Source of the DNA: the human T2T-CHM13v2.0 reference genome, Homo sapiens
Length of the DNA: 64,000 bases
Assembly (NCBI GenBank): GCA_009914755.4
Contig: CP068257.2
Coordinates: forward strand, 38,464,001-38,528,000
Direction: 5' to 3'
Shown here: positions 28,514-39,905 of the stretch, in pieces
Numbering within the stretch: the first letter of the stretch is position 1
Layout: every line of letters begins with the position of its first letter
Program-made: the position numbers and the translations under genes
Notes under the pieces: generated by a model
The model's input: only the letters and a program-made list of their open reading frames with translations
What the model was told of the DNA's origin: nothing
Databases searched by the model: none

Positions 28514-28880
28514 TGATATGGGTTGGCTGTGTCCCCACCCAAATCTCATTTTGAATTGTAGTTCCCACAATCCCCATGTGCCGTGGGAGGGACCCCGTGG
28601 GAGGTAACTGAATCATGGGTGTGGTTACCCTCATGCTGTTCTTGTGACAGTGAGTGAGTTCTCATGAGACCTGGCTTTATAAGGGGCATTTCCCGCCTTG
28701 GTTCTGCACTTCCTCTTGCTGCTGCCACGTGAAGAAGGACATGTTTGTGTCCCCTTCCACCATGATTGTAAGTTTCCTAAGGCCTCCCCAGCCATGCTGA
28801 ACTGTAAGTCAATTAAACCTCTTTCCTTTGTAAGTCACTCAATCTTGAGTATGTCTTTATTAGCAGTGTGAGAACAGACA
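28514..28880 (+). mobile_element. THE1/MST-type (MaLR) solo LTR
   Basis: 'tgatatgggttggctgtgtccccacccaaatctcattttgaattgtagttcccacaatccccatgtgccgtgggagggacc...gcagtgtgagaacagaca'. 5-bp TSD 'ctgtg' at 28509-28513 and 28881-28885. Confidence 0.85.
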
Positions 28881-29014
28881 CTGTGAATAGGATAACAGGG
28901 AAAAAAGACCACTATTAAATGATAAACTTATAAAAAACAACATCGACTTCCCTTCCACTTTCTTAAAGAATAGAAGTCAAATAAATAGGCAAAAATTGCA
29001 CACAAAAAACTGAG

Positions 29015-31090
29015 AAGATTTAGAACCACATTCCATATCTATTGAGATAATCATGTAGTTTTTGTCTTTACTTCTGTTTATGTGATGAATCACATTTATT
29101 GATTGAGTATGTTGAACCAACCTTGCATCCTGGGAATAAAGCCTACTTGATCATGGTGGATAAGTGTATTAGCCCATTTTTATACTGCTATGAAGAAATA
29201 CCAGAGACTGTGTAATTTATAAAGAAAAAGAAGTTTAATGGACTCACAGTTCCACATGGCTGGGGAGGCTTTAAAATCATGGCAGAAGGCGAAGGAGGAG
29301 CAAAGGCATGTTTTACATGGTGGCAGACAAGAGAGGGTGTGCAGGGGAACTGCTCTTTATAAAACCATCAGAACTCATGAGACTTATTCACTATCATGAG
29401 AACAGCACAGGAAAATCCGCCCCCATGATTCAATTACCTTCCACCGGGTCTTTCCCATGACACATGGAGAAAATGTGAGGTACAATTCAAGAAGAGATTT
29501 GAGTGGAGACACAGCCAAACTATATCAATAAGCTTTTTGATGTATTGCTGGATTCAGTTTTTCAGTATTTTGTTGAGATTTCTGCATTGATGTTCATCAA
29601 GGATATTCTCCTGAAGTTTTCTTTTTTGTCATATCTCTGCCAGATTTGGGTATCAGGATGATGCTGGCCTCATAGAACGAGTTAGGAAGGAGTCCCCCCT
29701 CCTAGATTTTTTGGAATAGTTTCAATAGGAATGGTACCAGCTCTTCTTTGTATATCTTGTAGAATTCAGCCATGAATCCATCTAATCTTGGGCTTTTTTC
29801 ATTTGGTAGGCTACTTATTCCTGCCTCAACTTCAGAACTCATTATTGGTATGTTCGGGGATTCAATTTCTTCCTATTTCAGTCTTGGGAGAGTGTATGTG
29901 TTCAGGAATTTATCCATTTCTTCTAGGTTTTCTAGTTTATGTGCATAGAGGTGTTCATAATATTCTCTGATGGTTGTTTGTATTTCTGTGGGGCCAGTGG
30001 TAACATCCCACTTATTTATTCTGATTGTACTTGTTTGAATCTTGTCACTTTTTTTCTTTATTATCCTAGCTAGTGGTCTATTTTATTTTTTTTTTCAAAA
30101 AACTAGATCCTGGATTTGTTGATCCATTGAATGGTTTTTCATGTCTCTATCTCCTTCTGTTCAGCTCTGATTTTGATTATTTCTTGTCTTTTGCTAGCTT
30201 TGGGATTTGTTTGTTCTTGATTCTCTAGTTCTTCTAGCTGTGATGTTAGGTTGTTAACTTGAGACCTTTCTAACTTTTTGACGTGGGCATTTAGTACTAT
30301 AAATTTCTCTCTTAACACTGCCTTAGCAGTGTCTCAGAGATTCTGGTACATTGTATCTTTGTTCTTATTAGTTTCAAAGAACTTCTTGATTTCTGTCTTA
30401 ATTTCATTATTTACCCCCAAAGTCATTCAGGAGCAGGTCATTCAATTTCCATGTAATTTGTATAGTTTTAAGTGAATTTCTTAGTATTGATTTTGAATAT
30501 GATTGTGCTGTGGTCTGAGAGACTGTTACGACTTCAGTTCTTTTGCATTTGCTGAGGAGTGTTTTACTTCTGATTAATATGATCAATTTTACAGTAAGTG
30601 TCATATAGCAATGAGAAGAATGTATATTCTGTTGTTTGGGGGTGGAGAGTTCTGTAAATATCTTTCAGATCCATTTGAGTTCTGTAGATATTTATCAAAT
30701 CCATCTAATTCAGGACCTGAGCTCAGGTCCTGAATATCTTTGTTAATTTTTTGTCTCAATGATCTGTCTAATATTGTCAGTGGGGTGTTAAAGTCTCCCA
30801 CTGTTATTGGGTGGGAGTCTAAGTCTCTTTAATGGTCTCTAAGAACTTGCTTTATGAACCTGGGTGCTCCCGTGTTGGATGTATATATATTTAGGATAGT
30901 TAGATCTTCTTGAATTGAACCCTTTACCATTATGTAAAATATAGGATGATGTAAATTTAGGACAGTTAGATCTTTGTCTTTTTTGTTCTTTGTTGGTTTA
31001 AAGTCTGTTTTGTCAGAAACTAGGATTGCAACCCCTGCTTTTTTCTGTTTTTGATTTGCTTACTGGATTTTCCTCCATCCCTTTATTTTG
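29015..31090 (-). mobile_element. Old LINE-1 (L1PB/L1MA-age), inverted 5' segment of a twin-primed copy (ORF2 roughly aa 60-575), interrupted by the THE1 LTR at 29165-29527
   Basis: The minus strand translates to L1 ORF2 endonuclease and RT sequence (e.g. 'MGDFNTPLTILDRSLRQKINKDIQ', '[14 protein letters not shown]...TWKLNDLLLNDF'). The segment ends at 'atctcaatagat' near 29015. Confidence 0.8.
29165..29527 (-). mobile_element. THE1/MST-type (MaLR) solo LTR inserted into the inverted segment of an old L1
   Basis: 'tgtattagcccatttttatactgctatgaagaaataccagagactgtgtaatttataaag...cacagccaaactatatca'. 5-bp TSD 'ataag' at 29160-29164 and 29528-29532. The flanking sequence is contiguous L1 ORF2 antisense ('cctacttgatcatggtggataag' / 'ctttttgatgtattgctggattcag'). 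Confidence 0.85.
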
Positions 31091-37700: not shown

Positions 37701-38544
37701 GTCTAAAACACCAAAAGCAATGGCAACAAAAGCCAAAATTGACAAATGGGATCTAATTAAACTAAAGAGCTTCTGCACAGCAAAAGAGACTACCATCAGC
37801 GTGAACAGGCAACCTACAGAATGGGAGAAAATTTTTGCAATCTACTCATCTGACAAAGGGCTAATATCCAGAATCTACAATGAACTCAAACAAATTTACA
37901 AGAAAAAAACAAACAACCCCATCAAAAAGTGGGTGAAGGATACGAACAGACACTTCTCAAAAGAAGACATTTATGCAGCCAAAAGACACATGACAAAATG
38001 CTCATCATCACTGGCTGTTAGAGAAATGCAAATCAAAACCACAATGAGATACCATCTCACACCAGTTAGAATGGCTATCATTAAAAAGTCAGGAAACAAC
38101 AGGTGTTGGAGAGGATGTGGAGAAATAGGAACACTTTTACACTGTTGGTGGGACTGTAAACTAGTTCAACCATTGTGGAAGTCAGTGTGGCGATTCCTTG
38201 GGGATCTAGAACTAGAAATACCATTTGACCCAGCCATCCTATTACTGGGTATATACCCAAAGGATTATAAAACATGCTGCTATAAAGACACATGCACACG
38301 TATGTTTACTGTGGCACTATTCACAATAGCAAAGACTTGGAACCAACCTAAATGTCCAGCAATGATAGACTGGATTAAGAAAATGTGGCACATATACACC
38401 ACGGAACACTATGCAGCCATAAAAAAGGATGAGTTCATGTCCTTTGTAGGGACATGGAAGAAGCTGGAAACCATCATTCTGAGCAAACTATCGCAAGGAG
38501 AAAAAACCAAACGCCGCAAGTTCTCACTCATAGGTGGGAATTGA
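34723..38544 (+). pseudogene. L1 ORF2 remnant (endonuclease-RT-Cys domain), broken into pieces by an early TGA and several frameshifts
   Basis: Track ORFs 34834..35991, 36006..36458, 36407..36676, 36673..36960 and 36976..38544 are successive ORF2 segments in different frames ('[17 protein letters not shown]', '[12 protein letters not shown]', '[60 protein letters not shown]'). Confidence 0.88.
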
Positions 38545-39905
38545 ACAATGAGAACACATGGACACAGGAAGGGGAACATCACACACTGGAGCCTGTTGTG
38601 GGGTGCGGGGACGGGGGAGGAATAGCATTAGGAGATATACCTAATGTTAAATGACTAGTTAATGGGTGCAGCACACCAACATGGCACATGTATACATATG
38701 TAACAAACCTGCACGTTGTGCACATGTACCCTAAAACTTACAGTATAATAATAAAAAAAAAGAAATGCAAATCAAAACCACGATGAGATATCATCTCACA
38801 CCAGGCAGAATGACTATTATTAGAAAGCCAAAAAATAACAGATGCTGGTGAGGTTGTGGAGAAAAAGGGATGCTCATACACTGTTGATGGGAGTATAAAT
38901 TAGTTCAGGCATTGTGGAAGACAGTGTGGCAACTCCTCAAAGACCTAATGACAGAAATACCATTTGACCTGGCAATCCCATTACTGGGTATATACCCAAA
39001 GGAATAGAAATCATTATGTTATAAAGACACATGCACACATATATTCATTGCAGCTCTATTCACAATAGCAAAGATGTGAAATCAATCTAAATGCCCATCA
39101 ATGATAGACTAGATAAAGAAAATGTGATAAATATACACCATAGAATACTATGCAGCCATGAAAAAGAACAAGATCATGTCCTTTGCAGAGATGGATGGAG
39201 CTGGATGCCATTATTCTTAGCAAACTAACATGGAAATAGAAAAACAAATACCACATGTTCTCACTTGTATGTGGTAGCTAAATTATGAGAACATACACAC
39301 ACATAGAGGGGAACAACACACAACACAACAACAACACACACCTTTCAGAGGGTGGAGGGTGAGAGGAGGGGGAGGATCAGGAAAAACTACTAATGGGTAT
39401 TAGGATTAATACTTGGGTGATGAAATAATCTGTAAAACAAACTTTTGTGACACAAGTTTACCTATATAAGAAATCTGCACGTTACCCCTGAACTTAAAAG
39501 TGAAAAAATAACGAACTGCATTCCATTAGAACTAGCCGTGAAATAAAAAGATATTTCCAAGAAAGCTTCAGGAATAGACTTCCCAAGAAATTTTATAAAA
39601 CCAGAATTGATTTTCACATGTCTGGGATATTTAGATGTAGCCTTGCCTCAAAGAAACCCTTCGAGGTTTTTTCCAGCCGTATGATTCCATGACAGGATGC
39701 TGGGGCTACAGTAATCCTTGGTTGATCCAAGAACATAGAGAGCCTAGCATCTGCCTGCCATGTAGAAGCACTGCACAAAGGTCTCATGTATATGATTCAT
39801 TACATGTGCGTAAATGGAATACAATTGTCTATTTTTAGGCCAACTTGTGGTATCTCCATAATTTTCAGATTTTCCATTATTAAAAAAAAAAAAAGAGAGA
39901 GATTC

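What the first reader, a model, noticed from the sequence alone, without database searches (positions are those of the whole stretch)
28514..39490. Nested retroelement cluster in the 30-kb intron: old L1, THE1 LTR and a full-length L1PA
Three layers can be read from the sequence. (1) An old L1 has its 5' part inverted: 29015-31090 is minus-oriented ORF2 (about aa 60-575) and 31090 onward is plus-oriented ORF2 (about aa 565 to the 3'UTR). The two segments meet at 31090 and overlap by the same ORF2 position ('gattatctcaatagat' occurs at both segment ends), which is the signature of twin priming. (2) A THE1/MST solo LTR (29165-29527) lies inside the inverted segment with a perfect 5-bp TSD 'ataag' and contiguous L1 sequence across the empty site. 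(3) A 6.1-kb full-length L1PA (32617-38760) lies inside the direct segment with a 14-bp TSD 'agaaatgcaaatca'. A second THE1 LTR (28514-28880, TSD 'ctgtg') sits about 135 bp outside the old L1. The ordering gives a relative chronology (old L1, then THE1, then L1PA). All L1 parts that could transcribe toward the gene are antisense to DSCAM, as is usual for intronic L1s.
Basis: seen in the sequence. Interest (0 to 1): 0.5.

Follow-up and report, generated by a model that had tools for sequence, protein, structure and literature searches.

The report
Nested L1 and LTR insertions, DSCAM intron
This is an ordinary pile-up of dead jumping-gene copies inside a 30-kb intron of DSCAM: an old LINE-1 that inserted with its front half flipped (twin priming), later hit by a small LTR and by a full-length, now broken, primate LINE-1.

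Summary
An old L1 lies between 14-nt target-site duplications (29023-29036 and 39513-39526, 12/14 identical). Its 5' part is inverted (29037-31100, ORF2 aa 52-600). Its 3' part is direct (31099-39512, from ORF2 aa ~595 to the 3' end). The same 17 nt of L1 (TGATTATCTCAATAGAT) sits at the outer end of the inverted piece and at the start of the direct piece. The two pieces share 2 nt (TG) at the internal junction. Both are about 81-82% identical to the young L1 in the window. This is the textbook twin-priming product, which makes up about 18-22% of L1 insertions. A 363-nt MaLR solo LTR (29165-29527, minus strand, TSD ATAAG) splits the inverted piece. A 6.1-kb full-length L1PA (32616-38760, TSD AGAAATGCAAATCA) splits the direct piece. 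It keeps the 128-nt 5'UTR block that younger L1PA3/2/HS lost, and both its ORFs are broken. A second MaLR LTR (28514-28880, TSD CTGTG) lies outside the old L1 and looks more MST-like than THE1-like. The host gene is DSCAM on the minus strand, and the intron spans 17076-47377. Nothing here departs from known biology, so interest is low.

The parts
28514..28880 (+). MaLR solo LTR no. 1 (MST/THE1-like, 367 nt, TG...CA ends). Its 5-nt TSD CTGTG is at 28509-28513 and 28881-28885. It lies 142 nt left of the old-L1 TSD.
29023..29036 (.). Left target-site duplication of the old L1: GAACCACATTCCAT.
   Evidence: 12/14 identical to 39513-39526. It abuts the first L1 base.
29037..29164 (-). Old L1, inverted segment, outer part. 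This is ORF2 up to D600 and corresponds to L1PA ref 3901-3773. The first 17 nt (29037-29053) are the reverse complement of TGATTATCTCAATAGAT, which is also copied into the direct segment.
29165..29527 (-). MaLR solo LTR no. 2 (THE1-like, 363 nt), inserted into the inverted L1 segment. Its TSD ATAAG is at 29160-29164 and 29528-29532.
29528..31100 (-). Old L1, inverted segment, inner part (L1PA ref 3777-2258, ending at ORF2 H52). It carries two small internal tandem duplications.
31099..31100 (.). Inversion junction. The dinucleotide TG is shared by both segments (microhomology).
31099..32615 (+). Old L1, direct segment, first part (L1PA ref 3885-5419, ORF2 from codon 595). 31099-31116 is the second copy of the 17-nt overlap.
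32616..38760 (+). Full-length L1PA, 6145 nt. Parts: 5'UTR of about 1027 nt, ORF1 ATG at 33644, ORF2 stop at 38544, short poly(A). Its TSD AGAAATGCAAATCA is at 32602-32615 and 38761-38774. ORF1 and ORF2 are both interrupted.
33385..33512 (+). 128-nt block of the L1PA 5'UTR that is absent from L1HS. It corresponds to the roughly 129-bp ZNF93-site region deleted within L1PA3 and its descendants.
38761..39512 (+). Old L1, direct segment, second part: ORF2 C-terminus, a 3'UTR unlike that of L1PA, and a degenerate A-rich tail AAAAGTGAAAAAATAAC.
39513..39526 (.). Right target-site duplication of the old L1: GAACTGCATTCCAT.
17076..47377 (-). The DSCAM intron (about 30.3 kb) that holds the cluster. The flanking exons are 47554-47378 and 17075-16923 on the minus strand.

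Best explanation
One old L1 (older than the L1PA lineage; its 3'UTR does not match L1PA) inserted into this DSCAM intron by target-primed reverse transcription with twin priming.

Inferred mechanism. The bottom-strand nick primed cDNA from the poly(A) tail. That cDNA reached L1 position ~3885 (ORF2 codon 595). The 3' overhang of the nicked top strand primed a second cDNA internally at ~3901 (ORF2 D600), and this one ran to ~2258 (ORF2 H52). The two cDNAs joined at a 2-nt TG microhomology. The product is: TSD, inverted aa 52-600, direct aa 595 to tail, TSD, with 17 nt of L1 copied twice.

Later events. A MaLR (THE1-type) element inserted into the inverted piece and collapsed to a solo LTR. A full-length L1PA of the pre-ZNF93-deletion type (early L1PA3 to about L1PA6) inserted into the direct piece. 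Another MaLR solo LTR sits just outside the old L1.

All copies are decayed and I expect no function. The structure, the boundaries and the TSDs are shown directly. The order of priming steps is inferred from the established twin-priming model.
For: - Adjacent opposite-strand pieces of L1 have abutting, overlapping L1 coordinates: 3901 at the outer end of the inverted piece and 3885 at the start of the direct piece. The 17-nt duplicated string is read directly.
- ORF2p coordinates are 52-600 and 595 onward.
- A TSD pair flanks the composite, 12/14 identical, with an anchored chance of about 1e-3.
- TG microhomology sits at the junction.
- The two pieces have similar identity to the in-window L1PA (80.6% and 82.3%). 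Identity near the breakpoint is 80-88% on both sides.
- The inverted piece has no 3'UTR and no poly(T) at its outer end, which an independent insertion would have.
- Published properties match. [quoted passage not shown] 5' inversions occur in 18-22% of L1 insertions. The overlap between the two cDNAs has median 12 bp with quartiles 4-17, and TSDs have median 13 bp (PMC12016303).
- The nested insertions have exact TSDs, and the host-L1 coordinates are contiguous across each empty site.
Against: - No repeat-consensus library was available. Subfamily identity of the two old-L1 pieces was tested only indirectly.
- The old-L1 TSD has two mismatches.
- The cleavage site implied by the 14-nt TSD (bottom strand GTTC/TA) is a poor match to TTTT/A.
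- A weaker similarity extends about 17 nt further left, so the true TSD start is uncertain.
- There is an extra AT between the left TSD and the first L1 base, so microhomology at the internal priming site cannot be resolved.
Confidence: 0.9

Rival explanations
1. A single, ordinarily inserted, 5'-truncated L1 whose 5' 1.7 kb was inverted afterwards by a DNA rearrangement (breakage and rejoining, or recombination).
For: It gives the same topology as twin priming, with flanking TSDs retained.
Against: One inversion breakpoint would have to fall exactly on the L1/TSD boundary at 29036/29037. A simple inversion also does not duplicate 17 nt of L1 at the two ends of the inverted block. The size of that overlap fits the published twin-priming distribution.
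Confidence: 0.05
2. Two independent L1 insertions, head to head, that happen to be adjacent.
For: L1-rich introns do accumulate neighbouring fragments. The subfamily of each piece could not be assigned with these tools.
Against: - The inverted piece lacks its 3' 2.2 kb and its poly(A), which TPRT insertions normally keep. A later deletion would have to end within 17 nt of the other copy's truncation point, roughly 30-40 in 6000 by chance.
- There is no separate TSD for either piece, and one TSD pair encloses both.
- Both pieces show similar divergence.
Confidence: 0.03

Closest known systems
Twin-primed (5'-inverted) L1 insertions (Ostertag and Kazazian 2001, cited in PMC12016303; described in PMC2837659)
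   Same: TSDs bound two opposite-oriented fragments of one L1. The outer end of the inverted fragment and the start of the direct fragment fall on the same L1 position with a 17-nt overlap. There is 2-nt microhomology at the internal junction and an A-rich tail on the direct fragment.
   Different: Nothing in kind. The inverted part is long (about 1.7 kb) and the direct part is about 2.2 kb. The endonuclease motif is not recognisable, as is common for old copies.
Full-length L1PA elements that keep the ZNF93-bound 5'UTR segment (L1PA4-6 and early L1PA3; PMC7110667)
   Same: The 5'UTR is collinear with L1HS but 128 nt longer at the expected place. The ORF2 C-terminal 522 aa are 93% identical to human ORF2p. 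It has a 14-nt TSD and a short poly(A).
   Different: This copy is dead. ORF1 has at least three disruptions. ORF2 has about two stops and three frameshifts. 35 of 58 CpGs have decayed. The exact subfamily was not assigned.
ERVL-MaLR solo LTRs (THE1 / MST families)
   Same: About 365 nt, TG...CA termini, 5-nt TSDs. The two copies are mutually alignable (72%).
   Different: LTR1 matches that consensus at only 77% and has an MST-like centre, so 'second THE1' is probably a mislabel at subfamily level.

Membership tests
Twin-primed L1 insertion | Two adjacent fragments of L1 in opposite orientation, with the inverted one on the 5' side | tested here: met
   minus-strand match at 29037-31100, plus-strand match at 31099-39322 (and beyond)
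Twin-primed L1 insertion | The 3'-most L1 coordinate of the inverted fragment adjoins the 5'-most coordinate of the direct fragment (small deletion or overlap) | tested here: met
   3901 against 3885, a 17-nt overlap, ORF2 codons 595-600. The published overlap has median 12 bp and quartiles 4-17.
Twin-primed L1 insertion | One pair of target-site duplications flanks the whole composite | tested here: met
   GAACCACATTCCAT and GAACTGCATTCCAT, 12/14. 22 of 20000 random anchored pairs did as well.
Twin-primed L1 insertion | Both fragments come from one L1 RNA (same subfamily, same age) | tested here: inconclusive
   80.6% and 82.3% identity to the in-window L1PA, with no step at the breakpoint. 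No consensus library was available to name subfamilies.
Twin-primed L1 insertion | Poly(A) tail on the direct fragment and an L1 endonuclease motif at the target | tested here: inconclusive
   degenerate A-rich tail AAAAGTGAAAAAATAAC. The cleavage site implied by the 14-nt TSD does not resemble TTTT/A.
Full-length L1PA (primate L1) | L1HS-type 5'UTR, ORF1, ORF2, 3'UTR, poly(A) and TSD in one collinear copy of about 6.1 kb | tested here: met
L1PA lineage before the ZNF93-site deletion | Presence of the roughly 129-bp 5'UTR segment lost within L1PA3 | tested here: met
   128-nt block at 33385-33512 relative to L1HS. PMC7110667 gives the family history.
ERVL-MaLR solo LTR (THE1/MST) | TG...CA termini, about 350-430 nt, 5-nt TSD, no internal retroviral sequence attached | tested here: met
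   for both copies
THE1 subfamily specifically | High similarity to the THE1 consensus rather than the MST consensus | tested here: inconclusive
   87.6% (LTR2) and 77% (LTR1) to a consensus recalled from memory. No Dfam or Repbase was available.
DSCAM gene (host intron) | The flanking exons encode DSCAM rather than a paralogue | tested here: met
   384 aa from minus-strand exons are 97% identical to a protein named Down syndrome cell adhesion molecule homolog. DSCAML1 proteins are 50-64% identical. Splice sites are shown.

The most novel reading that the evidence does not exclude
The cluster might not be inert. Two parts point in the DSCAM sense direction: the antisense-promoter/ORF0 side of the full-length L1PA 5'UTR (around 32616-33600, minus strand) and the sense-oriented THE1-type LTR2. 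Either could start intronic transcripts that splice into the exon at 17075 and downstream, giving 5'-truncated DSCAM RNAs. Nothing in the sequence argues for this beyond orientation. The CpGs of the L1PA 5'UTR are 60% decayed.
Probability: 0.04. Interest if true: 0.3.

Novelty: already known. Interest (0 to 1): 0.08.

Why it matters
It matters little beyond annotation. It is a clean, fully resolved example of twin priming with all hallmarks still legible in an old copy. The nesting gives a relative order: the old L1 came before LTR2 and before the L1PA. It confirms that a sequence-only reader can parse nested retroelements correctly. It has no bearing on DSCAM coding sequence, because the nearest exons are more than 8 kb away on either side.

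Tried and rejected
- Exact-product look-up of the L1PA 522-aa ORF, to locate the locus in public assemblies, found nothing on record.
- PDB sequence search with the DSCAM exon translation returned only generic Ig/FN3 relatives, so it could not name the gene. The search for homologous proteins did name it.
- Two PDB queries by DNA reference failed because of in-frame stops. I replaced them with one X-masked concatenated query.
- The original twin-priming paper is not held in the library, so I used later open-access papers that describe and cite it.
- Rfam found no RNA family anywhere in the window.
- I considered scanning metagenome contigs for an orthologous empty site. I rejected it because the flanks are L1 consensus-like, exact matching would fail on diverged orthologues, and primate host DNA is unlikely in that collection.
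- I considered that the old-L1 TSD might be about 31-33 nt long, starting at AAAAAACTGAG (which would give a TTTT/G cleavage site). I did not adopt this, because the matching right-hand stretch reads as the normal L1 3' end plus tail.
- I considered that LTR1 and LTR2 might be the two LTRs of one provirus. I rejected this because they have opposite orientation, 72% identity, and each has its own exact TSD.
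Full report
**Setting.** The window carries eight coding exons on the minus strand with canonical splice sites. I then confirmed the gene independently. 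The 384-aa exon translation is 97% identical to a database protein named Down syndrome cell adhesion molecule homolog, while DSCAML1 proteins are only 50-64% identical. The intron between the exons at 47554-47378 and 17075-16923 is about 30.3 kb and contains the whole finding.

**The young L1.** A copy at 32616-38760 (+) is collinear with a human L1 from the first bases of the 5'UTR to a short poly(A).
- Its last 522 codons are open and 93% identical to human ORF2p residues 754-1275 of PDB 8uw3.
- The rest of ORF2 is split over three frames, with about two stops and three frameshifts. ORF1 (ATG at 33644) is also broken.
- It is flanked by an exact 14-nt duplication, AGAAATGCAAATCA, at 32602-32615 and 38761-38774. 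The L1 it interrupts is contiguous across the empty site, with coordinates 5406-5419 duplicated.
Recall errors can only lower the figure, so at least 91% identity is a lower bound. 35 of 58 CpGs have decayed to TG/CA. The window copy has one 128-nt block (33385-33512) that L1HS lacks.
- That block matches the roughly 129-bp ZNF93-bound segment deleted within L1PA3 and absent from its descendants (PMC7110667). The copy therefore belongs to early L1PA3 or an older L1PA, probably L1PA4-6. I could not assign the exact subfamily without a consensus library.

**The old L1.** I used the young copy as a ruler (reference coordinate = window minus 32616). The matches are:

| Window | L1PA ref | Strand |
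|---|---|---|
| 29037-29164 | 3901-3773 | minus |
| 29528-31100 | 3777-2258 | minus |
| 31099-32615 | 3885-5419 | plus |
| 38761-39322 | 5406-5969 | plus |

- The remaining 190 nt to 39512 are a 3'UTR that does not match L1PA, followed by a degenerate A-rich tail.
- On human ORF2p numbering the inverted piece spans H52 to D600, and the direct piece starts in codon 595.
- The outer (left) end of the inverted piece and the first bases of the direct piece are therefore the same 17 nt of L1, TGATTATCTCAATAGAT. The direct copy has one extra A.
- At the internal junction the two pieces share TG (31099-31100).
- Directly left of the first L1 base lies GAACCACATTCCAT (29023-29036). Directly after the A-rich tail lies GAACTGCATTCCAT (39513-39526). 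A 12/14 anchored match of this kind occurred in 22 of 20000 random anchored pairs drawn from the window.
- The two pieces are 80.6% and 82.3% identical to the young L1, with no step in identity at the breakpoint.

- A recent long-read survey found 5' inversions in 18-22% of L1 insertions. The overlap between the two cDNAs had median 12 bp (quartiles 4-17), and TSDs had median 13 bp (PMC12016303). The values here, 17 nt and 14 nt, fall inside those ranges.
- Two independent insertions are very unlikely. The inverted piece has no 3' end or poly(T) at its outer end, and its end coincides within 17 nt with the truncation point of the other piece. One TSD pair encloses both.
- A later inversion of a normal insertion is unlikely. 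One breakpoint would have to sit exactly on the L1/TSD boundary, and a simple inversion does not create the 17-nt duplication.
- Two points remain open. The implied endonuclease site is not recognisable. The subfamily identity of the two pieces was tested only indirectly.

**The LTRs.**
- LTR2 (29165-29527, minus strand, 363 nt) has TG...CA ends and an exact 5-nt TSD, ATAAG. The L1 coordinates are contiguous across it, with 3773-3777 duplicated.
- LTR1 (28514-28880, plus strand, 367 nt) has an exact TSD, CTGTG, and lies 142 nt left of the old-L1 TSD.
- The two LTRs align with each other at 72%. The centre of LTR1 reads like MST.
- Both are independent MaLR solo LTRs. The family-level label is sound, but the subfamily labels need Dfam.

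**Chronology.** Nesting proves that the old L1 predates LTR2 and that it predates the L1PA. It says nothing about LTR2 relative to the L1PA, or about LTR1. It is not derived from this sequence.

**Orientation.** DSCAM is on the minus strand.
- Antisense to the gene: the L1PA, the direct old-L1 piece and LTR1.
- In the sense orientation: the inverted old-L1 piece and LTR2.
- The antisense side of the L1PA 5'UTR also points along the gene. A 178-aa minus-strand ORF (32452-32988) runs out of it. I did not follow this up and have no evidence of activity.

**Verdict.** The structure is a standard, already well-understood product of L1 and LTR retrotransposition in a large neuronal-gene intron. It is a neat teaching example but not novel.

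Noticed in passing
window 61416-62363 and 62857-63208: A long degenerate TG-rich microsatellite/minisatellite of about 1-1.8 kb. It explains the strong positive GC skew (+0.5 to +0.6) at 61-63 kb.
   Followed up: no
window 14823-15180 (-) and 18198-18550 (-): Two more MaLR-type LTR copies, 71-73% identical to LTR1. One lies in the neighbouring intron and one in the same 30-kb intron.
   Followed up: no
window 19995-20180 and 21280-21429 (+): Remnant of a much older L1 in the same intron. It shows ORF1 C-terminal and ORF2 N-terminal similarity of 39-50% aa to the L1PA. This fits the A-rich skew at 17-22 kb.
   Followed up: partly
window 30647-30704 and 30883-30974: Two small internal tandem duplications inside the inverted old-L1 piece: 30 nt x1.9, and a 26-nt repeat 66 nt apart. 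The second adds a 9-aa insert relative to ORF2p.
   Followed up: partly
window 32452-32988 (-): A 178-aa minus-strand ORF (GTG start) runs through the antisense side of the L1PA 5'UTR and out into the old L1. This is the region of the L1 antisense promoter/ORF0, which here points in the DSCAM sense direction.
   Followed up: no
window 39900-40200 (+): An Alu element about 375 nt right of the old-L1 TSD, preceded by an A/GA-rich run.
   Followed up: no
window 26857-27115: AT-rich 141-nt unit repeated 1.8 times, with internal TATA-type short repeats.
   Followed up: no
window 1883-57268 (-): Eight DSCAM exons (about aa 1133-1571) lie on the minus strand at 57268-57041, 47554-47378, 17075-16923, 10495-10373, 8968-8804, 7220-7119, 3557-3369 and 2194-1883. 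These are tblastn match limits, so true exon ends differ by a few bases.
   Followed up: yes
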